This document shows, one piece after another, positions 12,263 through 60,649 of a DNA stretch of 64,000 nucleotides. The DNA lies in IMG/VR virus record IMGVR_UViG_3300035670_000099, positions 29,612-93,611 of that record. One strand, given 5' to 3'. The translations under genes and the position numbers were made by a program. The notes beneath the pieces are model-generated. The model saw only the letters and a program-made list of their open reading frames with translations, was not told the origin of the DNA and did not search any database. This DNA is from a virus. Within the stretch, counting starts at the first letter, position 1. The number at the start of each line of letters is the position of its first letter.

Positions 12263-14011
12263 ATGTCACGGAAATTTATAAAAGAATTATCAGAACAGCA
12301 AGTCATAGATTCAATTAATCAAGCAAAAAGAGAAAAAATGTCAGACAAACCAAAAGGATTTGCTATTGCCAACTCCGTCAAGATTCAAGACAGCGTATCA
12401 GTAGAATCTACTACAGATGTTTCAGCTCCTGCACCTACTCCTGCTCCTGAGCATGATGCGCCGAAGCCTTTATCTTTGGACGATGTTGAACGTGTTTTAT
12501 CTGTTCATTTAGATAAAATGCAATCTTCTTTAGAAGCGGAAAAACAAGCTAAAGCAGAATTGGAAGCTGCTTTACAAAAAGAACGTGCTGAAAAGGACGC
12601 TCTTAAATCTCAATTAGATACAGCGAGATTAGCTGAAAAAGTATTAAATGATATTGGTAGAATGCAAGGAAAAACTGAAAGCGTTTTTGTTCCTAATGTT
12701 AATAGAGTAATAACATCTAAAGCAGATGCGCCACAAGGTGCTTTAAAAGATTGGTTTAACATTTTTGATGACTGCTCCAAAGTCATCAAAGTACGCGCCA
12801 ATGGCTCTCAGTATGTTACTCAAGACAACAGGCAGTTGAATCAATTTGTTAAAGAAAACAAAGCAGCTGTTATTAAAGACTTAGAGTCTTGGGCAAAAGC
12901 CAATGGTATGTTGCGTGGTTCTTCTACCATTTCCAAAGATGCTGCAACAGTTGGTGGAGACATCCAAGGCGGCTTTTTGTCTGTTTTGTCATCAATTATG
13001 CGTACTAACAATCGTCAAGGATTTATCTTTTGGCAATTTGCTAATACTGTAATTGATTTTGGCAAAGGATTGGGGGACAACATTAAGATTCCTAGAGCGG
13101 CTTATTTACCCGCTCCTAACGCTCCTGAAGACAGATTATTGTCAAGTGCTGGTGCGTATACTCGTATTGACTCTGGTAATCAAAATTTGTCCACTGGAGT
13201 TGTAACAGCTCAGTTAAGTGAATGGGGTTTAGGACGTAATTCCCAATATCCTCCTGTTACTTTAGTTAGCTTTGTGACTGCCTATTCAATGATTGAACTA
13301 TTGTCAATTTTGAATAGAAACTTAATGCGAGATTACTACGCATGGGAAGATTTGCAGATTAGAAGCTTGTGGACTGGCACAACTCGTGTTGTTTATAATG
13401 ACAAGAACGCTGTTACTACTTCTATTGGTGATGTTGCTACTGCTGGAGATGATGGAACTTTATCTCGCAAATTCTTAGCGTCTCTGTATGGTTACATGAA
13501 AGAACTACAGATTCCTCCATTTGCTGGTAACAAGTATGGCTTGGTAGTTAACAGCACAGCTTTAACTCAATTGAAGATTAGCTATGACACTTTGTGGCAT
13601 GCTGCTACTCCTAGTGAATTGCAAGCTTTGACAGAGTTCTTGAATCCTGTTCTAATCTCTCCTGGCGAGACAGATAAACTAACTGGATATTGTGGAGATT
13701 TTGAGAACTTCATGATTTTCGAGACTAATGCTTATGGTGTTGGTGGTAGCGGCGCTCCTGGTGTTCAAACAGAAAGCAGCAAAGTCACTCACACTAGCTT
13801 TGCTTTTGGTGCTGACACAATCGGACGTGGCATCGGCACTGAAATGGAAGTTCGCTTTGATGATGACACTGATTTTGGACGTGCTACTAGAACTATCTGG
13901 CGCTCTGAAGAAGGATTTGTCCAGATGGATGTTGATGGTGCAGGAGACAGTAGTGCTGTTCCACAACAACTTAGAGTTATCAAAGTTAACACACTCAAAA
14001 CTGCAATTTAA
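12263..14011 (+). CDS. Major capsid protein (HK97 fold, N4-gp56-like) with N-terminal coiled-coil scaffold-like region
   Basis: C-term FGADTIGRGIGTEMEVRFDDDTDFGRATRTIW; DFGKGLGDNIKIPR; heads the head-neck-tail operon. True start may be ATG 12338. Confidence 0.85.
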   Translation: MSRKFIKELSEQQVIDSINQAKREKMSDKPKGFAIANSVKIQDSVSVESTTDVSAPAPTPAPEHDAPKPLSLDDVERVLSVHLDKMQSSLEAEKQAKAELEAALQKERAEKDALKSQLDTARLAEKVLNDIGRMQGKTESVFVPNVNRVITSKADAPQGALKDWFNIFDDCSKVIKVRANGSQYVTQDNRQLNQFVKENKAAVIKDLESWAKANGMLRGSSTISKDAATVGGDIQGGFLSVLSSIMRTNNRQGFIFWQFANTVIDFGKGLGDNIKIPRAAYLPAPNAPEDRLLSSAGAYTRIDSGNQNLSTGVVTAQLSEWGLGRNSQYPPVTLVSFVTAYSMIELLSILNRNLMRDYYAWEDLQIRSLWTGTTRVVYNDKNAVTTSIGDVATAGDDGTLSRKFLASLYGYMKELQIPPFAGNKYGLVVNSTALTQLKISYDTLWHAATPSELQALTEFLNPVLISPGETDKLTGYCGDFENFMIFETNAYGVGGSGAPGVQTESSKVTHTSFAFGADTIGRGIGTEMEVRFDDDTDFGRATRTIWRSEEGFVQMDVDGAGDSSAVPQQLRVIKVNTLKTAI

Positions 14012-15476: not shown

Positions 15477-15913
15477 ATATTGAGCAACTTGTCAGTGGCG
15501 CGTTAGAACATTTGCCCGATAATTATTTTAGTACAGTTAATTTAGAGTTAAAATTCAACGTTGGCAGTGGTAGTTTTACAGTAGATCCAGAGACTGGGAA
15601 TTATGTTCAATCATCTACTCCTACTACACTATTAGTTTCTGCAACTGAATACAAAGATCCAAAAGTGCTGCAAATGCCTGGCAGCTACAGTACTAGCTTA
15701 ATCCAAGTCGAAGGACGGCTGAGTAATCCAAAATTGATGCCAACTACAATCACTGTTCAATCTGTTGGTACAGCTAAACTAACCAACAACGATGGTTCTA
15801 TATTTCAAGGAACTTGGAAGTTCATAGCTATTACACAGAATAGAATAAATGCTTACACAACTAAAAGAGGTACGTTAATACGAGGTACTATAACGCTGCC
15901 AACAGCAGTCTAA
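15473..15913 (+). CDS. Putative head closure/neck protein
   Basis: Position after the adaptor, ATGA overlap, VDPETGNY motif. Confidence 0.55.
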   Translation: MNIEQLVSGALEHLPDNYFSTVNLELKFNVGSGSFTVDPETGNYVQSSTPTTLLVSATEYKDPKVLQMPGSYSTSLIQVEGRLSNPKLMPTTITVQSVGTAKLTNNDGSIFQGTWKFIAITQNRINAYTTKRGTLIRGTITLPTAV

Positions 15914-15932
15914 ATAATTTTTCAGAAAACTA

Positions 15933-15961
15933 TTGACAGCAATAAAATAGGATGCTATATT
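15933..15961 (+). promoter_or_regulatory. Sigma70-type promoter
   Basis: CTA-TTGACA-17 bp-TATATT. Confidence 0.7.
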
Positions 15962-16090
15962 AATTTTATTCGATAAGCAATAGGCAAATTCTATGGTATT
16001 TGATTATGATTATCCCGAACGGGATAAAAAAGACAAACAGTAAGCTCTAACTTACTAACTTGCAATAGCTACACCACAACACAAATGGGG

Positions 16091-16111
16091 CCTCCGCAAG
16101 GAGGTTTTTTT
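16091..16111 (+). terminator. Rho-independent terminator
   Basis: CCTCC-GCAA-GGAGG followed by T7. Confidence 0.8.
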
Positions 16112-16114
16112 ATT

Positions 16115-16333
16115 ATGTCAAACGTAGATCACCCACAGCATTACACAACAAGTTCAGTTGAATGCATTGATGCAATTGCAGCAGCTTTATCTCCGGAAGA
16201 GCTAAGAGGATTCATCAAAGGCAATGTCATCAAATACTTATGGAGAAGCGAACACAAGAATGGTAATGAAGATTTACAGAAAGCTTTATGGTACTTAAAT
16301 TGGTATGTCAATAAAATCAAAAATCCATCATAG
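16115..16333 (+). CDS. DUF3310 protein (T7 gp1.7-like nucleotide kinase family)
   Basis: VDHPQHY...ECIDAI...GFIKGNVIKYLWR..HKNG.EDL.KA.WYL; ATG 16115 preferred because the upstream ATG runs through the terminator. Confidence 0.9.
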   Translation: MSNVDHPQHYTTSSVECIDAIAAALSPEELRGFIKGNVIKYLWRSEHKNGNEDLQKALWYLNWYVNKIKNPS

Positions 16334-17276
16334 AGTTTTTGTGTAATTTTCCATTTACCACCTTATATTGCTTTAGCCAGTTATAGGCAGTAGATTGGCA
16401 AACACCTAAATAGAGTTTACACCATGCGAATGATTTGCCATTAGAAAGTGCGTTTAAGACTGTTATTTTGACATTGTCATCGTAAGAAGGCCTGCCAATT
16501 TGTAATGGATTTTCAACAAACTGACTTTGGCAACTTTTGCATAAATATTGCTGCCTATTTCCTCTTTTCCCGTTCTTGACAACATTTTTGCTTAAACAGC
16601 TAGGACAAACAACAATATCGTTGACTACATTTTTAAGTAGTTCTATACCTTCAGATTCTAGTTGTTTAATTTGGTATACTGACAAATTTAATAATGACTT
16701 AATATCTTGTATTTTATAATCTTCAATATAAATTAATCTAAGTATTTGTGCGTGCTTGCTTGGAATTTTAGCTAGTATTATCTCTAATTCATCGATAGTA
16801 GAGTTATCAAAGTAACTGATTTCAGGAAGTTCTATGTGAATTTTATCATGAGCTATCGCAGCTTCTTTGGCGGTTAATTCTGAAATAGTCAAGTCCCTAG
16901 CTGATTGTTCATAAGTAATACCTTTCTTTTTAGCATTACGCATTATTTTCTGATAAATGTCTTGGATGTTCCTAGGGATTTTAACTAATCTGTCTTTGTC
17001 CCGCAGGAACATTAACATATATCCATTTATGAAAGGAACAGCAAAGCTGGACAGCTTTTTAGATTTCTCAGGATTATATCTTTCAATAGCTTGGATTAAT
17101 CCTAGACACCCAATTTGTACTAAATCCTCTAATGGAACAGAGCAAGACTTCTGGACTTTTTGAGCAACAGAGTAGACAAGTCCTAAATTTTTTTCTACAA
17201 TCTTATTTCTTATTTTTATGTCTTTACTCTCGTAGTATTTGATTAGCAGCTGTTGGTTAACATCAAAATTCATCAC
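16317..17276 (-). CDS. Group-3 (SigF/SigB-like) sigma factor fused to a C-terminal IS1 InsA-like Zn ribbon plus HTH
   Basis: RNKIVEKNLGLVYSVA...EDLVQIGCLGLIQAIERY...SSFAVPFING...LRDK..LVKIPR; C-term CPSC..KNVVKNG....QQYLCKSC...GVCQSTAYNW. Confidence 0.85.
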   Translation of the reverse strand: MMNFDVNQQLLIKYYESKDIKIRNKIVEKNLGLVYSVAQKVQKSCSVPLEDLVQIGCLGLIQAIERYNPEKSKKLSSFAVPFINGYMLMFLRDKDRLVKIPRNIQDIYQKIMRNAKKKGITYEQSARDLTISELTAKEAAIAHDKIHIELPEISYFDNSTIDELEIILAKIPSKHAQILRLIYIEDYKIQDIKSLLNLSVYQIKQLESEGIELLKNVVNDIVVCPSCLSKNVVKNGKRGNRQQYLCKSCQSQFVENPLQIGRPSYDDNVKITVLNALSNGKSFAWCKLYLGVCQSTAYNWLKQYKVVNGKLHKNSMMDF

Positions 17277-17314
17277 ATTAACACAAATGTTACATATTTA
17301 TGTTACTTTAAAAA

Positions 17315-17321
17315 TGGCAAC
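17315..17321 (+). promoter_or_regulatory. Putative late promoter element TGGCAAC
   Basis: 33 nt upstream of ATG 17348; the same motif sits at similar distance before three other late genes. Confidence 0.5.
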
Positions 17322-17347
17322 TTTATAGGTAAACTATTCAGGAAACT

Positions 17348-17755
17348 ATGAAAGCTATTTGGAATAAAAATATTAATATTTCTCCTAAAACTGCTACTTA
17401 TACTTGGAGTGCAAATTACGCTCCTATTGTTCATGAAGGCGGTACAAGAAAGGATGGGAGTGATTTTCCTGCTCGTCCCTGGGTTTGGAAAACCGTAGGA
17501 TTAAATGGACAGGAAAGACGTTATGATATTGTACAAGATTTCAATGATAAAATACGTACAGCGAATAGTTTCGATCAATTGTTTGAGGACATTGCAAATA
17601 AACTTGATAGTGAATTTAGGAAGACTATAGAAGCTGAAATATTTACATGGGATGCAGCGACAAAAAGGAAAAATGGCATCACAGTTACGTCTCCAAGAGA
17701 TATTGTTGATTTAGGATTTTTAAGAAACTCTCAATCTAAGTCTATACAGCCATGA
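17348..17755 (+). CDS. HK97 gp10-like neck/tail-completion protein, motif order apparently permuted
   Basis: YAPIVHEG...PARPW and SPRDIVDLGFLRNS motifs. Confidence 0.65.
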   Translation: MKAIWNKNINISPKTATYTWSANYAPIVHEGGTRKDGSDFPARPWVWKTVGLNGQERRYDIVQDFNDKIRTANSFDQLFEDIANKLDSEFRKTIEAEIFTWDAATKRKNGITVTSPRDIVDLGFLRNSQSKSIQP

Positions 17756-18129: not shown

Positions 18130-18136
18130 TGGCAAC
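18130..18136 (+). promoter_or_regulatory. Putative late promoter element TGGCAAC
   Basis: 35 nt upstream of ATG 18165. Confidence 0.5.
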
Positions 18137-18164: not shown

Positions 18165-19145
18165 ATGCCTTTAGCAACTAGTTCTTTAATATTACAGAAT
18201 ACAAGCTTAGATTTGATTTTATTACCACTTGATGCAAATTATGGTGTACCTAGTCGTACAGTTTCTTTTGCTACTTTAGCGTTGCAAGCAAACGAAAATA
18301 TTGGAGATACCTCTATTAGTGTTTTATCAAGCACTACAGATACTCCTGTTTTTTTGCGCCAAGGAACTTCTTTATCATTTAGTGGTAGTACTGCCGCTCC
18401 ATTTAGGAGGCAAGTAATTGTCAATGAAGACAAAGTTGTTGGGACATCAGCTACTACTTTAAGTGTGACTCCTTTGTTGCGTCCTCTCGTTTCTGGAAGC
18501 GATCCAATAGGAATAGCAATTGTTCCTTTTGTGTCTAATCACGCTAATTTAGTGATTGAGTGTAATACGAGTAATGGTTCGCCAACTATTACTACTACTA
18601 ACTCTTTTGCCGACGTTGAAGTTGGTGATTTTGTTACTGGCGCTGGAGGCACTGGAATACCAGCCAATGCGTATGTTGTGTCAAAAGCAAGTAATACGTC
18701 TTTAACTATTAGCGCAAATGTTACTGCTGATGGCACCGGCGTAAATTTAACTTTTATTTCTCGTATTACTCCAACACCATTAACTGGTATCCAAACGCTT
18801 GATTTAAATAATCAAGAAACTCAAGTTGATACTACTCACTTTGCCTCTGGCGCTGGAACTGAAGCTGCAATTGTTAGATTTAATAGAAGTTACTCAGCAT
18901 CTGGCATTGCGTTAATTGGTGATGAAGCGCTAGAAAGAATTGTAAAAAGAGTAGCTGGTTTTGATAATGCTTTCTTAGGCAGAGAAGTATATGCTGTTTC
19001 AACCACTTCGGATGGTGAATCTATCCATGGTGTTGCAAAAATTATGGCATTAAACTTGCCTGCCAACCAAAACGAAGTTAAGAAATACTCTTTTACTCTT
19101 ATGTATCAAGGCAATGCTGCTTGGGTACAACCTTACTCTTATTAG
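18165..19145 (+). CDS. Tail tube protein paralog 1 (two inserted beta domains)
   Basis: GIQTLDLNNQETQVDTTHF...NRSYSASG...G.AKIMALNLPANQNEVKKYSFTLMYQG siphovirus tube pattern. Confidence 0.75.
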   Translation: MPLATSSLILQNTSLDLILLPLDANYGVPSRTVSFATLALQANENIGDTSISVLSSTTDTPVFLRQGTSLSFSGSTAAPFRRQVIVNEDKVVGTSATTLSVTPLLRPLVSGSDPIGIAIVPFVSNHANLVIECNTSNGSPTITTTNSFADVEVGDFVTGAGGTGIPANAYVVSKASNTSLTISANVTADGTGVNLTFISRITPTPLTGIQTLDLNNQETQVDTTHFASGAGTEAAIVRFNRSYSASGIALIGDEALERIVKRVAGFDNAFLGREVYAVSTTSDGESIHGVAKIMALNLPANQNEVKKYSFTLMYQGNAAWVQPYSY

Positions 19146-19156
19146 GAGAATGAATC

Positions 19157-19942
19157 ATGCCTTTAGCTACCGCGTCTCAGATTTTACAGTCTTTTTCTCT
19201 CGAGATGATGCTTTTGCCATTAGATACTTTTGGTGCTGCCAATAGATCTTCTACTGGGTATCCTTCTGCAACTATTACCACAACTGGTGCTGCTGTAGGC
19301 GCTACTTCTTTAAGCATAAGTGCTAGTTCTAGTATTGGCTCTTCAACAAGCTTTGCTATTAATGCTGGAACAGCTTTATCTTTTGCCCCTGCTAGTAATA
19401 TAAAGTCTAGACAACAAGTTGTAGTAACTCAAGATGTTCAAAGTCTTACAACTTCATCTACGTCAGTTTCTATTTCTCCATTACTTCGCCCAATAGCAGC
19501 CTCATCAACTGCTACTTTAATTTATCAAACAGACGCTAATATTAGTGCTGGCGCTACAAAGCTATTGCCATTAAGTGGTATTCAAACAATGGACTTGAAC
19601 AATCAAGAAACTCAAGTTGATACTACTCACTTTGGCTCTGGCGCTGGCACTGAAGCTGCAATTGTTAGATTCAATAGAAGTTATTCTGTATCTGGAATTG
19701 CATTAATTGGTGATGAATGTTTAGAAACTGTTGTTAAAAGAGCAGCTGGTTTTGATAACGCTAGACTTGGCAGAGAAGTGTATGCAATTACAACAATGCC
19801 TGATGGAGAAAGAATTGCTGGTGTTGCAAAAATCATGGCATTGAACTTGCCTGCCAACCAAAACGAAGTTAAGAAATACTCTTTCACATTGATGTATCAA
19901 GGTTCTATTTACGAATGGACTGCTCCTTACTCTAATTTTTAG
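19157..19942 (+). CDS. Tail tube protein paralog 2
   Basis: C-terminal core nearly identical to paralog 1. Confidence 0.75.
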   Translation: MPLATASQILQSFSLEMMLLPLDTFGAANRSSTGYPSATITTTGAAVGATSLSISASSSIGSSTSFAINAGTALSFAPASNIKSRQQVVVTQDVQSLTTSSTSVSISPLLRPIAASSTATLIYQTDANISAGATKLLPLSGIQTMDLNNQETQVDTTHFGSGAGTEAAIVRFNRSYSVSGIALIGDECLETVVKRAAGFDNARLGREVYAITTMPDGERIAGVAKIMALNLPANQNEVKKYSFTLMYQGSIYEWTAPYSNF

Positions 19943-19970
19943 TATGGCTTACTAAAAGCTAGGGGGATAA

Positions 19971-20699
19971 ATGGCTTCTACTTCGCAACCACTAAGAAGT
20001 TGCTGCTTAGAAATATTGCTGCTTGACGTTAATTCTGATGGCAGCACTATTACTGATTTGTTTAAGACAGAAATAGAAGTAGTAGAGACGGCAAACATCT
20101 CTGCTACTTCTGTTAAACTGCGCAGTTATACTGATGTATTCTTACCTGCTGGCACTTCTCTATCTTTTGTTAATCCAGACGCTGACGGCATAAATACATA
20201 CAGAAAGCAAATTATATTAACAGAAGACACAACGATAGAAGAATTTACTACAACTGTTAAAATCTATCCTTTACCTTATTCTTTGCGGCAGGGTGACATA
20301 GCAGAAGCCATAGAAGGAATTTTGCCATTATTTGGATTGCAAACAATTGATTTATCTTCCCAAGAAACTCAAGTAGAAACAACAAATTTTCGCTCTGGAA
20401 AAGGCGTAAATAATGCTTTTGTAAGATTAGCTAAAACATGTAATGTCACTGGCATAGCATTGGCAGGAGATAGAGCATTAGAAACTATAGTAAAACCAGT
20501 TGGTATTTTCTCTAGTGAACTATTTGGCAGGGATGTATATGTAGCTGTTACAATGCCAAATGGCGAGCGATTTGAAGGTATAGCTAAAATAGGATCTATG
20601 GCATTACCAGCTAATCAAAATGATGTCCAAAAATTCAGCTTTACTTTACTATTCCAAGGTGAAGATTTTGTTTGGCATCCTCCCTTCATTTTTAGTTAA
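19971..20699 (+). CDS. Tail tube protein paralog 3 (more divergent)
   Basis: GLQTIDLSSQETQVETTNF...LPANQNDVQKFSFTLLFQG. Confidence 0.7.
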   Translation: MASTSQPLRSCCLEILLLDVNSDGSTITDLFKTEIEVVETANISATSVKLRSYTDVFLPAGTSLSFVNPDADGINTYRKQIILTEDTTIEEFTTTVKIYPLPYSLRQGDIAEAIEGILPLFGLQTIDLSSQETQVETTNFRSGKGVNNAFVRLAKTCNVTGIALAGDRALETIVKPVGIFSSELFGRDVYVAVTMPNGERFEGIAKIGSMALPANQNDVQKFSFTLLFQGEDFVWHPPFIFS

Positions 20700-38611: not shown

Positions 38612-39190
38612 ATGATTAAAAATGATAAGTGGATTCTAGAGGAATGTAAAAAAGGGATGATTCAACCATATGAAACACAACTTGTTAAATACAACAATGG
38701 CAAGCGAATTAGTTATGGATTATCTTCTTATGGTTATGATATTAGTTTGTCTGACACAGAATTCTGGGTGTTTAGAAATGATAACAATACTGTTGTCAAC
38801 CCCAAGAATTTTATTAGAACAAATCTAGAATCTGTGCCTTTGCAAAAAGATGAATATGGAGAGTTTTTTGTAATTCCAGCCCACTCTTATGGATTGGGAG
38901 TTGCACTAGAGAAAATTACAATGCCTGACAATGTAACTGCTGTTTGTGTTGGTAAAAGCACTTATGCCAGAGTTGGATTGATTGCTAACATCACTCCTGT
39001 TGAAGCTGGATGGAGTGGACATTTAACATTAGAATTTAGCAATTCCTCCGGTGCTGACTGCCGAATTTATGCAAATGAGGGAATAGCACAATTACTGTTT
39101 TTTGAAGGTGAGACTTGCTCTACAAGCTATAGCCAAAGACAAGGCAAGTATCAAGATCAACCTGAGAAAGTGGTATTCGCTAAAGTCTAA
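38612..39190 (+). CDS. dcd: dCTP deaminase
   Basis: ISYGLSSYGYD, GKSTYARVG, TPVEAGWSGHLTLEFSN, YANEGIAQLLF, GKYQ. Confidence 0.95.
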   Translation: MIKNDKWILEECKKGMIQPYETQLVKYNNGKRISYGLSSYGYDISLSDTEFWVFRNDNNTVVNPKNFIRTNLESVPLQKDEYGEFFVIPAHSYGLGVALEKITMPDNVTAVCVGKSTYARVGLIANITPVEAGWSGHLTLEFSNSSGADCRIYANEGIAQLLFFEGETCSTSYSQRQGKYQDQPEKVVFAKV

Positions 39191-39837
39191 GATTGTTGGA
39201 TTACATTCTCTATAAGAGCAGCAATCTCCGCTGCTCTTTTAACTTGTGGACATTTAATAATATGACAACATACTCTTTCTAATAACAAGAATCCAACATA
39301 CTTGCCTTCAATTAAGTAAAACATATAGCTATAAGTCTTCCTCGACTCTAACCATGTTTGGCACACCTTGCCATTTTTGACATTAGAAAACACATATTTA
39401 TCACCAGATTCTAATAAAAAATTAACTTGCAATGATACGTAAGAATAAATACATTTATTGTCTAAAACTTGCATTTTCTTTGTTTTAGAACATACTTCTA
39501 TCCAGGTGGAAAAGCTATCTGCAAATATGCCTTTATCAGTCCTCTTTGTCTGATCCAAAAAGAATAATGTAACTCTATTAAATCCTGTACTTATTAACTC
39601 TTGTAGATATGATTTAATGTATTCCTCCTCTTTAGTAGTAAAGGATGGTGTATTTAATGTGTTCATGGAATTTATTCTGTCACTTAATGTTTTTACACTT
39701 TTCTTAATCAAGTAAATTATCCATGCACTTATTAAAGAAAATAAGATAGGAAATGCGTCTATAATCAATTGAGACGCGACAGATGACACTAAAGATAAAT
39801 CGTTATTTTGAGAAGGAACTTCTTTGTATTCAGCCAT
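39187..39837 (-). CDS. Single-TM protein with GAF-like soluble domain, candidate T4 gpT-type holin
   Basis: One TM (FPILFSLISAWIIYLI), 216 aa, C-terminal alpha/beta pattern (...YVGFLLLE); preceded by TGGCAAC. Confidence 0.45.
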   Translation of the reverse strand: MAEYKEVPSQNNDLSLVSSVASQLIIDAFPILFSLISAWIIYLIKKSVKTLSDRINSMNTLNTPSFTTKEEEYIKSYLQELISTGFNRVTLFFLDQTKRTDKGIFADSFSTWIEVCSKTKKMQVLDNKCIYSYVSLQVNFLLESGDKYVFSNVKNGKVCQTWLESRKTYSYMFYLIEGKYVGFLLLERVCCHIIKCPQVKRAAEIAALIENVIQQS

Positions 39838-39868: not shown

Positions 39869-39875
39869 GTTGCCA
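39869..39875 (-). promoter_or_regulatory. Putative late promoter element TGGCAAC
   Basis: 38 nt upstream of ATG 39837. Confidence 0.45.
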
Positions 39876-39877
39876 AT

Positions 39878-42800
39878 CTATCTTTTAAGTATTCCACCCT
39901 GTCTTTGTTGACGTTGTATTTCTACTATTACTGCTGTTTTAATAGCATTCTGCATCGCATTTGGATCTATAGACGGTGATTTGTCACCATCTTGACTTTC
40001 AATCGTTATAGGCACATTTACAGTTGTATTTGTTGTTGGTTGATTAATATTTCCTATTCCAGGAGATGGGGGAATAACTCCACCACTTGCAAAGTTCATT
40101 ATGTTTCTTACTTTTAATTCGCTATTGCTTACGTTACCTCCCATGGCGTAATTCATTACAGATTCAATATTGTTGTTTTTAATTACTTTATCTAATCCCA
40201 TCGACTGGAACTTAGCATTGTCAGCAACACTCAACACTCTTTCTCCTGGCGTTAATACTGCTACTACTGGTGTTATTCCTCCATTTGCAGCTTTTTCTCT
40301 GACAATCGCTTCATTTAATGATTGAATTATGCCTCCACCAGCATAGTTCTTGATTACTCCTCCTTTGTATTGGCTGAATACTTCGCCTCCATCGTTGGCA
40401 CTTGGAACTTCGCCGCCGCTATTTCCTCCAAATATTCCTCCAATTGATTTGAATAGTGAATCAAGAATCCCTCCTGCTCCTACTAATGACTGCATTAATG
40501 ATTTGATAGCTATGTTAATGAGTCCGCTCAGCATGTTTCTAGCTAGGTTGTTTAAGACATCGTCTAGTTTTTCAACACCCATTATTACGTCTGTAAGCCC
40601 AGCTGATAAATCATTGATTAAACTATTTCTTATTAAATCTCTTATAGAAGCTACTACACTTTTGGCTGAATTTTCAATTTCTTTAATTTCTGCATCACGT
40701 TTTGCTTTAGCTTCTTCTTTTTTTTCTTTTTTTTGTTGATCGTCAAGATTTGGATCATTTTCTATATCTTCTTTTTCTTTTTCATATTCTTTTTCTTTTT
40801 GCTTTATTTTTATATCTCTTTCTTGAGCGTTAGCAACAAATTCGTTACCTCCTGAATTTCTGTAATTTTGTATTGTAAGTAATTTAGTTTGTATTTTTGA
40901 CTCTTCAAAACGTTTTGTTTGTTCGTAATCTAAATTTTCTTTTTGTATCTTTGCCAGTCCCTCTACTGCTCTTGTTAAACGATCTTTTTCTTCTTGTGGT
41001 AAAACAGCTGTTTGAATTTTTTCTTTTAAATCAAGTACTCTTAAATCAATATTTAATTTTTCAATAGTTTGATCTTTACCAAAAGCTTCAGCTTCAAGTA
41101 TTTTTAAATTTGTTTTATCTTTATTTGTTTGAATTTCATTTAATGTTGTTTCAATAATTGCCTGTGTATTGTTATTTTGTTTTTGTTTATCACGAATACT
41201 TTCGGCTTTTTTAACTTCTTCTGCTATCTTGTCTTGAGTTAGCCCAGAAGTACTCAAACTAACTTTGATTTTTTCTTGTAAAAATTGAATTTCAGCTTGC
41301 TGATCATTAATTTTTCGTTTTAATGCTGTAATATCATTTAAGGTAGTTAAAATTTTATCTTGTTTTTCTGGGTCTTGTTTAATTGATTCTAATTCTTTTT
41401 CTTTTTGATTTAATGAGCGTTGATAGCTTTCTAATGCTCTTTCAAGTTCCTGTTTTTGCTTTTCATCAGGAGTAACTTTTCTATTTTGTGACACATTTTG
41501 ATTAACTCGTATTCTAGCTTGATCTAATTTTTTTTGTAATTCAGGAAGTTTGCTATTAATAATATTTAACCTTTCTTGAGCTTTTGATTTTGACGATTGT
41601 AAAGCATCGTTCATTTCTTTTATTAAATTACTACCGTCATTTCTTGAAATAAGTCCTTCTTTAACTTGACCTTCTATAGTTTTTCTGTATCTTTCAAAAA
41701 TTGCATCAATTGATTTTAATGCGCTAAATAAATTTGTTTTTTCAGTAGTTAATTTTTTAACAGATTCTTTAGCAGAATCAAGATCTGATTTACTTTGTTC
41801 AATTATTGATTGTGATTCAAATGATGTATTATTATTTATGATTTTATCTAAATCTTGCGTAATTTTGTCTATTTCTGATTGCTTATTTGTAATTGAATCT
41901 TCTTGTAAAATATTATCTTTTATTTTTTTTATTTGATCTTCAAGATTCTGTCTCAATAATCTAGCATCTTCCAATTGCTGTTTTTTTCTTTCAGCGTCTA
42001 AAGCTTGTTGTTGTTGAGTAACTAAATCTTGCGAAATATTTAAAGGTTGATTTGAAACAGGTATTTTTATCGTTGAATTTGTAGATACAGATGTTAATCC
42101 TGGCATTGAACCCTGGAATCCTGTTGTTGGATTTGAATGTGAACACAAACATTTTGTTGCTGAATCTAAAATAGATATTATTTTTGTTACTAAAATTAAA
42201 AGTGGATCTCCTGTTGCTGTTGTATTTGAAACAGGTATTGCACTTGCTGTATTTGCAGGTATTGTTATTGCTGTATTTGAAACAGGTATTGCACTTGCTG
42301 TATTTGCAGGTGTTGTTATTGCTGTATTTGAAACAGGTATTGCACTTGCTGTATTTGCAGGTGTACCTGTTCCTTGCAATATTTTAACTATGTCTAAAAC
42401 AAGCTTTTTCGCTTCAATCTGAGAATTATTTAAAAATCTATTTGCATACTTTTTCTCATCTTCTGTTATTATTGCATTTAAAGGGGTTTTTGTTTTATCT
42501 GAAGGTACAGGTTTTCTTGTTTTTTGTGTTTTATTTGGAGGAGCAAAAACATCATCTAAAGATTCATCAAAAAGATAACTTAAAAAATTAAATACTTCTT
42601 TTTCTGTTATTTTTGTATCTAAAACAGGTTTTGTTTTTTGTGTTTTATTTGGAGGAGCAAAAAAATCATCTAAAGATTTATCATAAAGATAACTTAAAAA
42701 ATTAAATGCTTCTTTTTCTGTTATTAATCCTATTTTTTTCAAATTATCAATTATTGGAGGAGTAAGAGTAACAGAGTTTGTTGGAAGCACAAGTTCTTGT

Positions 42801-45800
42801 TTTGATGTTAATCCTGCTTTTTGCAATTCATTTCCTAATTTAAGAATTGATTGAGAATCGAGGCTATTTACAGAACGTAAATTTAATTTTCTTAAAGTTG
42901 GAACTATTTGTTTTGAATGCTGAGGAATCCGATTACTTTCTTGTTTATTTAAAAAATAATTTTCAAGAATATTTAATGGAGTTCCAACTACATCACCAAT
43001 TACGCCACCAATTACAGGTATTCTAGATCCAAAATTTTTAGCGTGGTCTCCAAAATTTAATTTTTCTCTTTCTTCATTTCTTTTTTTAACTGCTTCTAAA
43101 GTAAAATGCCTTTTTTCTTTTTCAGGCATGCCATAATTAGTAGTTTTTGCATTATTATATTTAGGATTATTTAAGAAATCAACTATTTGATTATAACTTG
43201 ATCTTTGTATTACATTTAAAAATATCTGTTCAACATTTGGATTTATTGGTGAACTTCTGTAATTAGAAATATTTCTAAGCCTATTATACATAGCCTCTTC
43301 TGTTTTTAGGCGCTCTTCTAAAGTCGGATTATCATCATGAGGAATTGCTTGATATCTTAATGGCTTAGATTTAGGTTTGAGAAAACCAAGTGCTATTTCG
43401 TTTTCGTTATTTTTTCTAAAATTTATGTAATCTTTAGGATTTAAACGATTTGAAGAATTAAAAGACGAAGAAGTATTACCACGTTCATATCCAATTAAAT
43501 TCAAAGAAGCTGAAGCTATTTTTACTCCTTGATTAAATCCTGTGTTATTATTAGCAATTTGAATAGAAGAAGGATTGGAAACATGACTAGGTCTTATTGA
43601 AGGTAAAATATTTCCAGGCAAATTATTATTAGGAGTGTTTTGCCTATTCGATTGAACAGAGATAGTAACTATTTTGCTAGATCCAATGTTTGATAAATAA
43701 TTTTTTATTAAAGCAAATTTATAAACACTGTCACTTAAATTTCTGTTTAAAGATAATACACCCGATCCTAATCGATTCATTGATTTTCCTGTTTTATCAA
43801 CTGATTCTTCAATATAAGATACTTGTTTATTGGTAAATTTCATCTCTTTTCTAAGTCTTTCTAATTCTTTGAATGATTCTTCAAATAATTTTTTAAAAGT
43901 AGCAGTAGATTGTTGAGCAAAATTTTTAATAGCATTTACATTTTCATTTGCTGATTTACCTAATAATTGAATAGCTTCGCTAAGTTTACGTTTATCTTCA
44001 ATGTCTTTGCGAGCATCTTCTAAAGCTTTTTGCTCTTGTTGTATTTTTTCTAAAGCTAATTCATTTATTTCAGTAATAAATTCTGAGACAACTTGTGCTA
44101 ATTGTGTTAATTCATTGTCTCCCATTCCTTTAAGTAATAATTTTAATGTTTTACCAGAGAACCTATTGTTAAGCTCTATTACTGCTTTTCTTAATTCAAA
44201 TCTTGCATCTTCAATTTGTTTTTGTACAGCTAGATTATAATCTTCTATTTGTTTTTTAGCGTCTTTAATTTTGTTTCTTAAATCTAAATTAGCTTTGCTG
44301 ATATCAACAGATGCTTTTGATCTATCAACTTTTGCTTTATTTATTTCTTTCTGTAATTCTTCTATCCTTTCTTTGTCTGACTCTCCTAGCTCAGACGAAG
44401 GTATTGAATTTAATAAATTTAAGGCTTGTGTTTTAGTTTTTATTTCATTATCAATAGCATCAAAAGTTTTATTTAGTTGATTTATTTTTAAATTCAACAA
44501 TTGAATATCAGCATCAGATTGAGATATAGTACCTTTATCTAAATTTTTGTAAATTTCTGCTTCTTTTTCATTAGATTCTATTTCAAGCTCTTGAAGATAT
44601 TCATCATAAGCTTTTGTAAATTTATTTAAATTACTAACAATTTTTGTGTATCTAGATTCAATCTCTGGTATAGCTCCTTTAGGTAAAAGATCTTTGTATT
44701 GTTTAGAAAAAGTATCAATTTTTTTTATTAACTCATCAAAAAAGCTACCAACCTTAAATCCTGGAAAAAGCTTTTCCGCTAGTTCCTTTTGTTTTATTAA
44801 AGTTTCTTTAACATTTTCTAATTCTTTGTATTTAGAACTATATCTTGATATAATAGATTGTTTTTCCTTTTCAATATTTGAATACTCTTTATCTATTCGG
44901 TCTATTTCTTTTTCATCATTTGATTCAAATGCTTTTTGTCTTTTCTCGCTTAATTCTTTTTGTTTATTTATTAATTTATTTATTTTTGTTTTATCTTGAG
45001 AAAAGTTTGAATCTTTATCTTGATTGTATTTCTTTAACTCTTTAATATTATCTTCAACTTCTTTGAAAAGATCTTTCTCAATACTATCTTTTAACTCAAG
45101 CATGTTATTTAAAAACATTTTTACTGATTCAAGAGCATCATAATCAGTATCGCGTACAATTGTTCCATACATTCCAAGTTCTTTTGCTATTTTTATTTGG
45201 TTCTTAGTATAAACTTTAGGTTTGTTTTCATCATTAGCTCCTATGTCAACTTGACGTTTAAAACTACCATATCCTTTGTCAAACCAAGTAAGGGGCTGAT
45301 AAGTAGAGCCTAAGTTTCCTCTTTCAACTTGTTCGTCATAATAGTCTTTAAGCTGCTCTGGACTCATTTTCCCTGATTTTACTAAATGAGCAGCGTAATT
45401 TATACGCTTTCTACGTTCATCTTCTACGTACGATTCTTCTTCTCCTTGAACTCCAATTACAACAAATGGATTTAATTGAAAGCCTTTACTAGGAATTGAT
45501 TGATAAGCAGAAAAGTTTGGTTTATTTCCTTTTGTTTTTTTAAGCTCATTATTAAAATCACGAAAAGCATTTGCAGCATTTTCAATACTTTTTGATATAT
45601 CATTAAATCCTTCTTTAAAAGGAACAGAAAAATCAGCTGCAGATAAAAATAAAGTACCAAAAGTAATTGCTAATGATGCTGCTCCTTTCGCTAAAGATCC
45701 AATTGAAATTTTAATTTTTTTAATAGATGTTAATCCAATTGTAATGAAAGTACTAAAAAAAGCAGATCCTAATTTTATTACAGCAGGAATTGCTTGGCTT

Positions 45801-48800
45801 AAAATAATAGATGCCATTTTAGATAAAAACTGTATTATTGTGTGAACAGCAGTTACTGTAAATATTCCTTTAAAAGCACCACCTAAAAAGCTAAATACTG
45901 GACTTATAGATTTAGCAAATTCTTTAAAAGTATTTAAAACAGGCTTTAAAGAAATACTTAAATATTCACTAATAAAACTAAAAGCATTTGTAATGATTTT
46001 AAGTGGATTTCGTCCACCAAAAAATTCATTTAATCCATTATGAAAAGCTGCACCTGAAGCTATTCCAATGATTTTAAATGTAGATGGAAAACTTGTTTGA
46101 AGAACTGCTATCACCCCTTTTAAAGAAGTAGACGCTGCTAAAGAAGCAGTGATTCCTGAAAAAATAGCAGGAGCGATTAATAAAGCAATTCCAGCAATTG
46201 CTATACTAAGTATAATAGCTGCGGAAGTGACTCCTTTTATAGCATTTGTAAGAATAGAGAAGCTGTCAGCAATATTAATAATTGCTTTAGGTATTATTCC
46301 AATCAATAATTCAAAAGAATCAATAATATGTAGTACTGCTTCAGTTCCAATGTTTTGCAGTTTTGTCAATGTTATTGCCAACCCACTTGCATTTTGCGCT
46401 GAGCCTTCGTATCTAGCTCTTAATATTTTGCCAACATTAGGTAATATATCAGCAGAAAGAATAGCACCTTGGCTTGTTAAATCAATTAACTCAGGAATTG
46501 TTTTGCCTATAGCCTGAGCAAAAATTTCCATCGCTGGAGGGAATTTTTCTCCTAATTGCTGTCTTAATTCTTCCATAGATAACTTACCTTTCGCCAATAT
46601 TTGAGTATAAGCAAGTAATATGTAAGTTACGTCTTTTCCTGTGATACCTAATGCATTTATGGATGAAGCAATTCCTTTATATAAATCTTGAATACCTTGC
46701 CCTTCTAGTTTTGTATTTTGCGCAGCTGCAAGTAATTGTCCATAAGCTTCTAATCCATCTGATATCGATACGTTGTATTGCTTAGATGCGTTAATTGCAA
46801 AATCAATTTCTTTTCCGCTTTTTGCTTCTCCTACAATAGAATTAATTTTTCTCAACGAAGGCTCTAATTTTATTATTTCTTCTCCAAGAGCAATTATTTT
46901 ATCAGTCAAGATAGACATAAAATCAGAAATATTGTAAAAAACATTAGTTAATGGGGAGAAAGTATCATCAATAGTATTTCCTAATTCTATTAAAGGAGAA
47001 ATTGCATTATGAAATTCTTCTCCAGCAATTTTAGCTAATCCATTAATTTCAGTAAGTTTGTTAATACCTTCAGATAATTTTTCTGGATCTGGTAAACTAG
47101 CTTCTTTTATGTCATCTACTATCTCTGAATGAACACTTGCATCAGGAGCTGAAATAGCTTGAAATTCTGTATAATCTTCAGTCGTTACTAAATTTATTTT
47201 AGTTTCTTCGCTTTCAATAGGATCTGTATACTGCTCTATTTCAACTTGTCCACCTTCTAATAAGATTTTAAAATTCCTAAGCTTTATTTCTTTTTCTTCT
47301 TCTGATAAATCAGGATGCTCAATAATTGCTTTAATTTCTTTTCTTATATTTTGCTGTGTATATTGACTAAATTCTGCTTTAATATCAAATTTTTGTTCTT
47401 TTTTAATTTTTTTATCTAATTCTTTTTCTAATTTATTTTTTTGATTTTTTAATTCTTCAATTTTCTTTTTCGCTTTATTTTCTTCTTTTGTTATTTCATT
47501 GTTCAATGCTTCACTTCTCGCTCTTAACGATTGAATCATTTCTGCACTAGCTTTTTGATCTGAGCCTTGTATAATATCTTTTTCGTAATCACTCAAATCT
47601 TTTAATTTTAATGCTGCTTCTTTTCTTTTGTCAATTAATTCTTCTTCTGTATTTTTAATTGCATTTACTTTATCTTGTATATTATCAAGTTCTTTTCCAT
47701 ATGTTTCACTTAATTTTGCAAATTTATCTATTCTTGATGCGTTTTGGTAATCTTTTTCTGCTTGCATTGCTTCTTTTTCTGCTTGTTTTATTTCTTCTTC
47801 TAATCTTGCAATTGATGCTTTATTCTCTTTTATTTGTTCTTCATATTTTTGCTTTTGCTCTTTGCCTATTTTACCTTTTTGTCTGTTTGTACGTTCATTT
47901 TGAAGACTTTTAAGTTCTGCCTGTGTTTGTTTAATCTCTTTGTCGTCGCGAGTTTTTTGTTCTTTTGTATATCCTCTACGACGTTCGTCAAAATCAAGGC
48001 GATTCATTTTTTCAACCAATTTATCTCTTTTTTCCTGTATTTCTTTTCTTTCTTCAATGTCTTCAGGTAATGTACGTCCAAACTCTTCTTCTAGTATTCG
48101 GTCTTCATCCTCAAGTTTCTTAATTTCATTATTAATAAATTCATCAAAATTTTTATTTTTTATTTTTTTATTTTCTTTTAATTCTCGAAGTTTGTTTATA
48201 AGATTTTCTATATTTTCGTCTAATTCTTTTTCTTCTTTTACTGTGAAATTTCTTTCGTTTTTTGCGTTTACTTTTTTTATTTCTTCTTCAATGTTATCAA
48301 GCTCTGCTTCTAAATTCTCTATTAATTTTATCTTTTCTTTAAGGTTTTCTATTTTAGCAGTGTCTGGATCAAAAGAAGATTCTTCAAATTCTAAAAGCTC
48401 TCTAAGCTCTGCTTTGTTTCCAGTACTTAATTCTAAATGAAGTTTTTTTTCTGTTTCTTTTCTTTCTTTCTCATATCCTTCGAGTTCTTTTTTATATCCT
48501 CTTCTTTCTTTGCTTGTTACATCTGTTTTTAAAAATTCTAATTGTTCATTTTTTCTTTTTAAATCTATTATTTTGTCTTCATTTTCTGCTTTTATAGATT
48601 CTTTTTCGTCTTTTTTTGATTCTTTTTTTCTTTCCAATGCTTCTGTATCATTAAATCTTATTTGATTTTGTTTTTTTAAAATTTCTTTATTAACTCTTTC
48701 ATTCATGCTATTAAGTTCTGCTTCTTTCTTTGCTATTTCTTTATCTAATCGTTCAAGTTCTTTTTTCTTGGATTCCTCCGCAGTAGTTTCATTTTTTTTA

Positions 48801-58612: not shown

Positions 58613-58619
58613 GTTGCCA
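58613..58619 (-). promoter_or_regulatory. Putative late promoter element TGGCAAC
   Basis: 34 nt upstream of the tape measure ATG. Confidence 0.5.
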
Positions 58620-60033: not shown

Positions 60034-60649
60034 AAGAAACATTATGCAATGGCATGTAGCATCGTGCTTGATTATCTGGTAAATAAGATGGGCATCTCCA
60101 ACCCCAATCCTTGACTTTATAATCACACAAAAATATTCGGCTGTCTTTTTGCAAATAAATACAAGGAACAGGACGACTAAGTTTGTCATTTTTCCATAAA
60201 TGATAATCGTCGATTAGCTCTTCTACTAACCAGCTTTTAATACCAGAATAAAACATAGTTTTATATTTTCCTAAAAAATGAATATATTCTAGCAATTCTT
60301 CTAATTTTTGCAAATCTGCTCGACAATACCAAGTAATTTGAGATGTTACTCTCCATGGTTTTATAGTACCATTGCCAAGATTATGATTTTTCTGTAAAAA
60401 ATAATACGGACTACTAGTTTTATAATACCAACTTGTCTTATCATTAGATAAATACCCAATTTCTAATGGAATATTCTCTTTTATGATTATTAGCCCAGCT
60501 TTAATTTGTTCCATATCAGGGTTTTGTTTAAGCATTTTAGCATTAAACAAAATTTGATGAGACAAAATTGCGTCAAAGCTAGGATTCCAATCATTACTTA
60601 ATGCGACAGGATTGGATAAAAAGGCAACTATTTTAATGTTAGAAATCAT
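60026..60649 (-). CDS. Orphan type IV CRISPR Csf3 (Cas5-group RAMP)-like protein
   Basis: KIVAFLSNPV...PSFDAIL...PL...WYYKTSSP...ITWYCRAD...LL..IHFLGK...W.VEE...L.RPVP...GWRCPSY..N...C.MP follows the Csf3 pattern as recalled. Confidence 0.65.
   Translation of the reverse strand: MISNIKIVAFLSNPVALSNDWNPSFDAILSHQILFNAKMLKQNPDMEQIKAGLIIIKENIPLEIGYLSNDKTSWYYKTSSPYYFLQKNHNLGNGTIKPWRVTSQITWYCRADLQKLEELLEYIHFLGKYKTMFYSGIKSWLVEELIDDYHLWKNDKLSRPVPCIYLQKDSRIFLCDYKVKDWGWRCPSYLPDNQARCYMPLHNVSYE

What the first reader, a model, noticed from the sequence alone, without database searches (positions are those of the whole stretch)
16317..17276. Phage sigma factor fused to a domesticated IS1 InsA-like Zn-ribbon/HTH domain
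Seen: a SigF-like region 2 and a degenerate region 4 continue in frame into CPSC-SKNVVKNG-QQYLCKSC-F and an HTH (GKSFAWCKLYLGVCQSTAYNW). No InsB/DDE gene follows. Established: that pattern is the DNA-binding N-terminus of IS1-family transposases common in cyanobacteria. Inference: a transposase DNA-binding module has been co-opted to give the sigma factor new promoter specificity or autoregulation.
Basis: partly seen in the sequence, partly recalled or inferred. Interest (0 to 1): 0.75.

Follow-up and report, generated by a model that had tools for sequence, protein, structure and literature searches.

The report
Phage sigma factor with transposase DNA-binding tail
A freshwater virus, probably of cyanobacteria, encodes a transcription-initiation (sigma) factor permanently fused to the zinc-ribbon/helix-turn-helix DNA-binding head of an IS1-type transposase, an old and conserved fusion that probably gives the factor an extra DNA contact, though its role is untested.

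Summary
ORF 16317-17276 (-) encodes 319 aa: a SigF-like sigma (regions 2, 3-like and 4) running without a break into a C4 zinc ribbon plus HTH. That tail matches the N-terminus of IS1-family transposases (NCBIfam IS1 E 7e-14; IS1/IS1595 zinc domain 47.6 bits, cut-off 28).

It is not an IS insertion:
- The 93.6-kb virus record has no DDE domain.
- No terminal repeats flank the module.
- A convergent DUF3310 gene overlaps the 3' end.

Eight diverged fused homologues (40-64% identity) come from viral or metagenomic contigs. All keep the four Cys and the HTH, with no indel at the junction. Synonymous sites are saturated, yet the tail changes no faster than the sigma core. Region 4 is the least conserved part, unlike in cyanobacterial SigF.

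Two cultured relatives, Cylindrospermopsis phages Cr-LKS4 and RM-2018a, have unfused sigmas. Loss versus later gain is unresolved.

Best reading: the transposase head is an exapted extra DNA-reading module placed upstream of the -35 contact. This mechanism is inferred, not shown.

No paper describing it was found. This scan noted similar sigma-transposase fusions on other DNA (e1-5352051, e1-5839407, e1-3670267).

The parts
16317..17276 (-). Whole gene for the sigma / IS1-type zinc-ribbon-HTH fusion. 319 aa from GTG 17276; ATG at 17273 is the likely start; stop at 16317-16319.
16989..17201 (-). Sigma region 2 (residues 26-96). The most conserved sigma domain in the clade.
   Evidence: Pfam PF04542, 62.5 bits; mean pairwise identity 0.59
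16842..16976 (-). Region-3-like helical segment (residues ~101-145).
   Evidence: The NCBIfam SigF PRK07408 alignment reaches residue 133. AF2 helices span 102-143. No Pfam Sigma70_r3 hit.
16632..16775 (-). Sigma region 4 (residues 168-215). Present, but the least conserved domain across the fused clade.
   Evidence: Pfam PF04545, 28.7 bits against cut-off 24.1; identity 0.34, and 0.24 in deep pairs, against 0.77 in cyanobacterial SigF
16515..16613 (-). C4 zinc ribbon (residues 222-254; Cys224, 227, 246, 249) of IS1/InsA type. It starts 5 residues after the last sigma-4 helix.
   Evidence: all four Cys invariant; no indel at the junction
16338..16484 (-). Three-helix HTH plus short beta-hairpin (residues ~265-313), homologous to the HTH of IS1-family transposases.
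   Evidence: NF033558 alignment to profile position 81; alignment A2; AF2 pLDDT >90; weak fold matches, Z 5-6, to Tc3, IstA and resolvase HTHs and to sigma-4
16115..16333 (+). Convergent DUF3310 gene whose 3' end overlaps the sigma gene's 3' end by 17 nt. It leaves no room for an insB remnant.
   Evidence: Pfam PF11753, 73 bits; the same layout occurs in the relative G001
17277..17347 (.). Divergent intergenic region between the sigma gene and the 135-aa virion gene. It holds TGGCAAC at 17315-17321 (+) and two GTAACAT repeats on the sigma side.
18130..18136 (+). TGGCAAC, candidate -12-like late-promoter element, 35 nt upstream of the tail-tube gene start. Conserved at the orthologous site in G001 (TGGCAAT) and Cr-LKS4 (TGGCAAC).
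58613..58619 (-). TGGCAAC, 34 nt upstream of the 6235-aa ORF. The Cr-LKS4 orthologue has AGGCAAC at the same distance.
39869..39875 (-). TGGCAAC, 38 nt upstream of ORF 39187-39837.
60623..60628 (+). GGCAAC, 35 nt upstream of ORF 60658-61335. The block AGGCAACTATTTTAA is conserved at the G001 orthologue.

Best explanation
Shown: this is the sigma factor of a freshwater tailed phage, about 94 kb and related to Cylindrospermopsis phage Cr-LKS4. Its core is a SigF-like group-3 sigma. An ancestor captured only the DNA-binding head (C4 zinc ribbon plus HTH) of an IS1-family transposase and fused it 5 residues after sigma region 4. The fusion is old and is kept by selection. Inferred: the sigma core docks on host RNA polymerase, and its conserved region 2 reads a -12-type element (candidate WGGCAAC, close to the GGTAA -12 element of SigF). 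The basic transposase head leaves region 4 on the upstream side. There it contacts DNA at or just upstream of the -35 position, acting as a built-in third reading head or in-cis activator that supplements, or partly replaces, -35 recognition by a relaxed region 4. The likely result is a phage-private promoter class for virion genes. No DNA target of the head has been identified.
For: 1. Domain calls: Pfam r2, r4 and Zn_ribbon_InsA; NCBIfam IS1 transposase E 7e-14 over profile 1-81/199 and IS1_IS1595_Zn 47.6 bits against 28. The tail aligns along its full length with N-termini of IS1-like transposases that then continue into the DDE domain.
2. Not a mobile element: no DDE_Tnp_IS1 in the 93.6-kb record, no bracketing inverted repeats, stops in all downstream frames, and a convergent DUF3310 gene overlapping the 3' end.
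3. Conservation: eight fused proteins at 40-64% identity share 23 invariant columns in the ~95-aa tail, against 35 in the 218-aa core. They have no indel at the r4-ribbon junction.
4. Between lineages pS is saturated (0.73-0.9), while pN of the tail (0.24) equals pN of the core (0.22).
5. Domain-wise identity in the fused clade: r2 0.59, r4 0.34 (0.24 in deep pairs), ribbon 0.55, HTH 0.50. In cyanobacterial SigF, r2 is 0.76 and r4 0.77. Region 4 is therefore relaxed while the appended head is constrained.
6. The tail is basic, pI 9.5. It folds confidently as ribbon, flexible linker and HTH.
7. InsA and InsAB' use this zinc-finger plus HTH region to bind the IS1 ends (PMC12903888, citing Ohta 2004).
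8. GGCAAC lies 25-50 nt upstream of 7 gene starts against 0.45 expected (post hoc). It recurs at orthologous sites in G001 and Cr-LKS4. It resembles the SigF -12 element GGTAA (PMC2532724).
Against: No binding site for the appended head was found. The only enriched late-gene motif also occurs in Cr-LKS4, which lacks the head, so that motif belongs to the sigma core or to another factor. Cr-LKS4 and RM-2018a function without the module, and the window's subclade has lost a further ~55-aa tail that deeper members keep. The module may therefore be dispensable. Within-population variants in the tail are 6 synonymous to 4 non-synonymous, against 26 to 3 in the core, which suggests weaker recent constraint. 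I have no control showing that relaxed region 4 is unusual for phage sigma factors of this divergence. The GGCAAC statistic is post hoc.
Confidence: 0.5

Rival explanations
1. Operator tether or autoregulator. The head keeps InsA's original job as a site-specific repressor or anchor. It binds one or a few operators, for example in the divergent 17277-17347 region upstream of its own gene, and so sets the timing or level of sigma expression. It is not part of general promoter recognition.
For: InsA represses the IS1 promoter by binding the IS1 ends (PMC12903888). Cyanobacterial SigF autoregulates (PMC2532724). The sigma gene's upstream region carries GTAACAT twice and, on the other strand, TGGCAAC. 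Related G(T)GCAA-like words lie 24-38 nt upstream of the sigma genes of G001 and L012.
Against: These words are short, AT-rich and not conserved in sequence between relatives. No palindrome or IS-end-like repeat is shared. A covalent fusion is not needed for a simple repressor. The head is as conserved as region 2 across lineages whose sigma upstream regions differ completely.
Confidence: 0.15
2. In-cis regulatory domain. Like the C-terminal extensions of ECF41, ECF42 and ECF238, the tail folds back on the sigma core or on RNAP and switches activity. Its C4 zinc site could act as a redox or metal sensor.
For: C-terminal extensions, some Cys-rich, are the second most common way ECF sigmas are regulated (PMC7826278). 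The tail has an invariant C4 site and an additional invariant Cys286.
Against: The tail is homologous over its whole length to a DNA-binding module and keeps that family's recognition-helix signature, T..(N)W.K. It is strongly basic. The full-length AF2 model has pTM 0.36 with separate confident domains, so no docked state was predicted.
Confidence: 0.12
3. Relic on its way out. The fusion was functional in the ancestor, but in this subclade it is nearly neutral and is being trimmed: a ~150-aa tail in deep members, ~100 aa here, and none in Cr-LKS4.
For: Tail lengths fall across the clade. Cr-LKS4 has no copy anywhere in its genome. Recent variants in the window lineage's tail are 2 synonymous to 3 non-synonymous.
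Against: Window against G001, with synonymous sites saturated, still shows 65% identity in the tail and pN equal to the core. There is no frameshift or stop in any of the four members of this subclade. The three replacements are conservative or peripheral (V223A, D267E, F319S). Counts are too small to show relaxation.
Confidence: 0.1
4. Recent accidental IS1 insertion or assembly chimera that merely reads through from sigma into insA.
For: Such read-through chimeras probably exist elsewhere. TetR-, GntR- and ECF-type proteins ending in an InsA-like module turned up in the representative search, and some look like fresh IS insertions.
Against: The same fusion with the same junction occurs in eight diverged sequences and in independent assemblies from at least 14 studies. 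There is no DDE, no inverted repeats and no space for insB.
Confidence: 0.02

Closest known systems
IS1 InsA / N-terminal DNA-binding region of the InsAB' transposase (IS1 family; NCBIfam NF033558, NF050000; Pfam PF03811)
   Same: C4 zinc ribbon followed by an HTH, colinear over ~85 residues. The family signature CP.C.S..(I/V)KNG...(K)Q.Y.CK.C..QF ... G.S ... T..NW.K is kept. In IS1 this region binds the terminal inverted repeats and the IS1 promoter (PMC12903888).
   Different: No DDE catalytic domain, no frameshift partner ORF, no terminal repeats, and not mobile. The module sits at the C-terminus of a sigma factor rather than the N-terminus of a transposase. Clade-specific invariant residues (GKS..WC..YL, Cys286) are absent from the transposases.
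Cyanobacterial group-3 sigma factor SigF (NCBIfam PRK07408; Synechocystis SigF, PMC2532724)
   Same: Best NCBIfam match for the core (E 1e-40 over residues 8-133). It forms the sister group in the tree. The candidate phage element GGCAA(C) resembles the SigF -12 element GGTAA.
   Different: The score of 139.8 is below the subfamily cut-off of 261. Region 3 is not recognised by Pfam. Region 4 is poorly conserved. A ~100-aa DNA-binding tail is added. The gene is phage-borne, inside the virion gene cluster.
Sigma factor g25 of Cylindrospermopsis phage Cr-LKS4 (OQ625504.1; 225 aa) and of RM-2018a
   Same: Same clade (100/100 support), 46% identity over residues 2-218. The gene sits at the same genomic position on the opposite strand inside the head-tail module, next to a small convergent gene.
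   Different: It ends right after region 4, and no zinc-ribbon/HTH homologue occurs anywhere in its 101-kb genome.
ECF sigma factors with fused C-terminal extensions (ECF41/56/294 SnoaL-like, ECF42 TPR, ECF238 Cys-rich; PMC7826278)
   Same: A sigma factor carrying a conserved C-terminal add-on in place of a separate partner protein.
   Different: Those are ECF (group 4) sigmas whose extensions act as regulatory, non-DNA-binding domains. Here a group-3-like sigma carries a bona fide DNA-binding module of transposase origin.
Other sigma/transposase-head fusions noted by this scan (e1-5352051 SigF-like + IS1; e1-5839407 ECF + IS1595 in T4-like phages; e1-3670267)
   Same: Same design: a phage sigma core followed by a transposase-type zinc ribbon and HTH with no DDE domain.
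   Different: These are AI notes on other genomes and I did not re-test them. e1-5839407 involves a different sigma group and a different IS family, so it would be an independent capture. My own search did find an ECF-type sigma ending in an IS1-like head (P0199), which may be a recent IS insertion.

Membership tests
Sigma-70 family, group 3 (SigB/SigF/SigG-like) | Region 2 (core binding, -10 recognition) | tested here: met
   PF04542, 62.5 bits against cut-off 24; TIGR02937, 90.7 bits against 42.9
Sigma-70 family, group 3 (SigB/SigF/SigG-like) | Region 3 | tested here: inconclusive
   No Pfam Sigma70_r3 hit at E<=1. However, the SigF PRK07408 alignment runs to residue 133, and AF2 places three helices at 102-143.
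Sigma-70 family, group 3 (SigB/SigF/SigG-like) | Region 4 (-35 recognition, flap binding) | tested here: met
   PF04545, 28.7 bits against 24.1, found in all four members scanned. It is the least conserved domain.
Cyanobacterial SigF subfamily (NF005644 / TIGR02980) | Full-length score above the curated cut-off | tested here: not met
   139.8 bits against 261; 106.6 against 234. It is a relative of the subfamily, not a member.
IS1 family insertion sequence / transposase | N-terminal C4 zinc ribbon | tested here: met
   NF050000, 47.6 bits against 28; PF03811, 26.5 against 26.1; four invariant Cys
IS1 family insertion sequence / transposase | HTH following the ribbon | tested here: met
   NF033558 aligned to profile positions 1-81; alignment A2; AF2 three-helix bundle, pLDDT >90
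IS1 family insertion sequence / transposase | DDE catalytic domain (DDE_Tnp_IS1 / InsB) | tested here: not met
   PF03400 has no match in the whole 93.6-kb record, while controls are positive. NF033558 scores 52 bits against cut-off 100 because only the head is present.
IS1 family insertion sequence / transposase | Terminal inverted repeats bracketing the element | tested here: not met
   Only short, imperfect, chance-level repeats in 15600-17500, and none bracket the module
ECF sigma factors with C-terminal extension | Two-domain (r2 + r4) ECF core without region 3 | tested here: not met
   The best matches are group-3 models (SigF, SigB/F/G, FliA). A ~60-residue r3-like segment lies between r2 and r4.

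The most novel reading that the evidence does not exclude
The captured transposase head has taken over upstream (-35-side) promoter recognition from a degenerating region 4. That would create a sigma factor whose promoter specificity is set by a transposase-derived DNA binder. Phages would have invented this repeatedly (IS1 head on a SigF-like core here; IS1595 head on ECF cores elsewhere) as a general way to build private, host-orthogonal promoter classes.
Probability: 0.25. Interest if true: 0.8.

Novelty: new variant of a known kind. Interest (0 to 1): 0.6.

Why it matters
Sigma factors are thought to read promoters with regions 2, 3 and 4. Their known fused extensions are regulatory, not DNA-binding. 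A sigma with a selected, covalently attached transposase DNA-binding head would be a new promoter-recognition architecture. It would also be a clear bacterial-virus example of transposase-domain exaptation into the basal transcription machinery, something well known in eukaryotic transcription factors but rare in prokaryotes.

The case is directly testable. A natural minus-tail control exists in a cultured relative, Cr-LKS4 on Raphidiopsis/Cylindrospermopsis. The phage itself is abundant in lakes worldwide. Such factors could also serve as compact orthogonal transcription parts.

Tried and rejected
Context of relatives therefore came from the search for related loci and the fetch from genomes.
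- Complex prediction, sigma core (1-218) against tail (219-319): no verdict, score 0.00. Not used as evidence either way.
- Foldseek against PDB gave no match at E<=0.001. VIA-align gave only generic three-helix HTHs at Z 5-6, within the tool's noise range. A phmmer search of PDB sequences gave nothing.
- The search for homologous proteins with the tail and lengths='longer' returned only the window's own cluster, a limit of the word index. The search for related loci with A2 failed because the alignment had no conserved stretch.
- The genome-contig scan found no prophage copy in any cyanobacterial genome. It found only a 2-kb contig binned into an 'Actinomycetales' MAG and unrelated IS1-like copies in Bacteroidales MAGs.
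- tblastn overhangs past residue 215 in Bacillus and faecal phage records looked like fused forms. They are ordinary 246-256-aa sigmas.
- No RNA holder was listed for this stretch, so expression and transcript starts could not be examined.
- K-mer enrichment in intergenic DNA recovers only the host-type early promoters, TATTGACA ... AAGTAGTTTAT. I found no convincing -35-side element specific to the fused phages. A TTTTCA word upstream of three sites is too weak to claim.
- I first inferred secondary loss in Cr-LKS4 from the tree. With more taxa its position collapses, and the AU test does not reject monophyly of the fused proteins (p 0.15). That claim is withdrawn.
- I first assumed the six '100%' IMG/VR loci were all-synonymous. 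One difference is D267E.

Full report
**What is there.** The minus-strand ORF 16317-17276 encodes 319 aa. The first codon is GTG. The ATG one codon later (17273) is the likelier start, because the database cluster form is 318 aa.

Pfam finds four things:
- Sigma70_r2 at residues 26-96, 62.5 bits.
- Sigma70_r4 at 168-215, 28.7 bits against a cut-off of 24.1.
- Zn_ribbon_InsA at 222-250, 26.5 bits against 26.1.
- Weak HTH_23/HTH_28 at 271-305.

NCBIfam ranks cyanobacterial SigF (PRK07408) first for the core, E 1e-40 over residues 8-133. The score is below the subfamily cut-off, but the general sigma-70 model is passed.

The last 105 residues were also searched alone. They match the IS1-family transposase model NF033558 at E 7e-14, over profile positions 1-81 of 199. 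That is exactly the ribbon-plus-HTH head and nothing of the catalytic part. They also pass the IS1/IS1595 zinc-domain model, 47.6 bits against 28.

**Context.** The window is part of a 93.6-kb IMG/VR virus record that CheckV rates 90% complete.
- The gene lies on the opposite strand inside the head-tail module. That module holds the orthologue of the Cr-LKS4 major capsid gene (12263-14011) and a tail-tube-like gene (18165-19145; Pfam Phage_tail_2, 22.7 bits, just under the 23.8 cut-off).
- A convergent DUF3310 gene (16115-16333) overlaps the sigma gene's 3' end by 17 nt.
- The closest cultured relatives are Cylindrospermopsis phages Cr-LKS4 and RM-2018a.
- The same stretch is held, with at least 73% of sampled words, in runs labelled freshwater, lake-water or aquatic metagenomes from 13 further studies, besides a 'subsurface/soil' study that may be its source.
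- A cyanobacterial host is inferred from these relatives and from the SigF-like core. It was not shown.

**Not an insertion sequence.**
- The DDE_Tnp_IS1 model finds nothing in the whole record, although it responds in control genomes.
- The three frames downstream are full of stops.
- Only short chance-level repeats occur around the module, and none bracket it.

**The fusion is old and kept.** Searches with the whole protein and with the tail alone recovered eight distinct fused proteins: P0001, P0003, P0004, P0204, P0005, P0024, P0025 and P0174. They are 40-64% identical to the window's protein and come from viral or metagenomic contigs.
- In their alignment the ~95-aa tail has 23 invariant columns. 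These include all four ribbon Cys, G236/K237, Q252/F253, G261/R262 and the HTH core G280-S282-W285-C286-Y289-L290-A297-W300-Y304. The 218-aa core has 35 invariant columns.
- There is no indel between the last sigma-4 helix and the first Cys.
- By Nei-Gojobori counts, synonymous sites are saturated between lineages (pS 0.73-0.9). The non-synonymous difference of the tail (0.24) equals that of the core (0.22) for window against G001. For window against L012 both are 0.41.

Recent polymorphism gives a weaker signal. Pooling IMG/VR variants and contigs from four lake runs, the window lineage shows 15 synonymous and 2 non-synonymous changes in the core. The tail shows 2 synonymous and 3 non-synonymous (V223A, D267E, F319S). 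The G001 lineage adds 11 and 1 in the core, and 4 and 1 in the tail. These counts are too small to prove either constraint or relaxation.

**Relatives without the tail.** Cr-LKS4 g25 is 225 aa, sits at the syntenic position and ends right after region 4. Its entire genome has no homologue of the tail. It falls inside a 100/100-supported clade with all the fused proteins. Its position within that clade is unresolved, and an AU test does not reject monophyly of the fused proteins (p 0.15). Loss in Cr-LKS4 and gain after its split therefore both remain possible. Deep members of the clade carry a further ~55-aa helical tail that the window's subclade lacks.

**A clue to function.** Domain-wise mean pairwise identity:

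| Set | r2 | r3 | r4 | ribbon | appended HTH |
|---|---|---|---|---|---|
| Fused clade, all pairs | 0.59 | 0.43 | 0.34 | 0.55 | 0.50 |
| Fused clade, deep pairs | 0.55 | 0.41 | 0.24 | 0.52 | 0.44 |
| Cyanobacterial SigF | 0.76 | 0.53 | 0.77 | - | - |

In the fused clade the recognition helix of region 4 falls to 0.20 in deep pairs. The normal -35 reader is thus free to drift, while the appended head is held almost as tightly as region 2. Three further points fit a DNA-binding role:
- The tail is basic, pI 9.5.
- Modelled on a 38-row alignment, it folds confidently as ribbon, short flexible linker and three-helix HTH with a small hairpin (pLDDT 86).
- In IS1 this very region binds the element's ends and promoter (PMC12903888, citing Ohta et al. 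2004).

Because the C-terminus of region 4 points upstream on promoter DNA (established structural knowledge of holoenzyme complexes), a head attached 5 residues later would lie at or just upstream of the -35 position. I therefore favour a built-in extra reading head or in-cis activator. One caveat applies: I have no control showing that relaxed region 4 is unusual for phage sigmas of this divergence.

**Promoter search.** Host-type early promoters (TATTGACA-N17-TATAAT-like, with an AAGTAGTTTAT block) dominate the enriched intergenic words. By eye, and then by count, GGCAAC lies 25-50 nt upstream of 7 gene starts against 0.45 expected. This P value is post hoc and should be treated as a lead only.
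- Five sites precede genes in or beside the virion cluster: 17348, the tail-tube gene 18165, the 6235-aa ORF, 39837 and 60658.
- The word recurs at orthologous sites in G001 (tube, as GGCAAT; 60658 orthologue) and in Cr-LKS4 (tube and giant ORF).
- Its distance to the start codons leaves room for a ~20-nt leader with the visible Shine-Dalgarno sequences.
- It resembles the GGTAA -12 element of Synechocystis SigF (PMC2532724).
- Because Cr-LKS4 has the word too, it is most simply read by the conserved region 2, not by the transposase head.
- I could not find an upstream element specific to the tail-bearing phages.

**Rivals.**
- The head could act only as an operator tether or autoregulator. 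InsA is a repressor and SigF autoregulates.
- It could be an in-cis regulatory or zinc-switch domain, like the ECF C-terminal extensions (PMC7826278).
- It could be a relic being trimmed.
- A recent IS insertion or assembly chimera is excluded by the conserved junction in eight diverged sequences and in independent assemblies.

The intramolecular docking test gave no verdict and is not used.

**Wider picture.** The tail-only search of 1.84 billion representatives also found the InsA-like head attached to other DNA-binding proteins:
- TetR regulators, for example P0150 from Chlorogloeopsis fritschii PCC 6912.
- GntR-FCD regulators.
- One ECF-type sigma (P0199).

Some of these may be fresh IS read-throughs. 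Earlier notes of this scan report comparable fusions on other DNA: e1-5352051 (SigF-like + IS1), e1-5839407 (ECF + IS1595, T4-like phages) and e1-3670267. I did not re-test those notes. Full-text searches found no paper describing a sigma-InsA architecture, and no GenBank phage record covers more than 76% of the protein.

**Verdict.** This is a real, conserved and selected domain fusion, and a new variant of a known kind: a sigma factor with a C-terminal extension, and an exapted transposase DNA-binding domain. Its mechanism is plausible and testable, but unproven.

Noticed in passing
window 39878-58585 (-): A single 6235-aa ORF in DNA of only 24-30% G+C, against ~35% elsewhere in the window. 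Weak orthologues (25-26% identity over ~1100 aa) exist in G001 and Cr-LKS4. It is preceded by the TGGCAAC word.
   Followed up: no
window 15933-16111 (+): A near-consensus sigma-70 promoter (TTGACA-17-TATATT with TG) is followed ~130 nt later by a strong hairpin and T-run terminator (16087-16108) that overlaps the ribosome-binding site of the DUF3310 gene. This may be a small transcription unit or an attenuator, convergent with the sigma gene. Also noted by the first readers (e1-6028608, e1-6028628).
   Followed up: partly
window 17293-17306 (-); genome positions 8175 and 8449 (outside the window): The word AAGTAACATTTGT(G/A)TTAAT occurs immediately upstream of the sigma start codon. A near-identical copy lies upstream of an early-region gene 38 kb away. 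GTAACAT is doubled in front of the sigma gene. This may be a shared operator or leader.
   Followed up: partly
L009:4970-5929 (+), i.e. G001, between the sigma gene and the neck gene: The relative G001 has an extra 319-aa gene inserted here (P0173). It has Gly/Asn-rich NT.G..NTAIG repeats and a C-terminal Peptidase_S74 intramolecular-chaperone domain, so it looks like a tail-fibre protein. It is absent from the window.
   Followed up: partly
proteins P0150, P0079, P0116, P0145, P0040, P0199 (representative library): IS1-type zinc-ribbon/HTH heads are found fused to TetR, GntR-FCD and an ECF-type sigma. One case is a TetR protein of Chlorogloeopsis fritschii PCC 6912 seen on 28 contigs. Whether these are domesticated modules or IS read-throughs was not resolved.
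   Followed up: partly
cluster of P0023 / P0203, on one 72.7-kb contig: On one related contig the fused gene is called as two pieces, a 107-aa sigma N-terminus and a 190-aa remainder. The break lies inside the sigma core, so it is probably a frameshift or assembly error and not a natural split at the fusion point.
   Followed up: no
window 18165-20699 (+): Three consecutive paralogous tail-tube-like genes (326, 261 and 242 aa) share a C-terminal core. Only the first has a weak Phage_tail_2 hit, 22.7 bits against a cut-off of 23.8.
   Followed up: no
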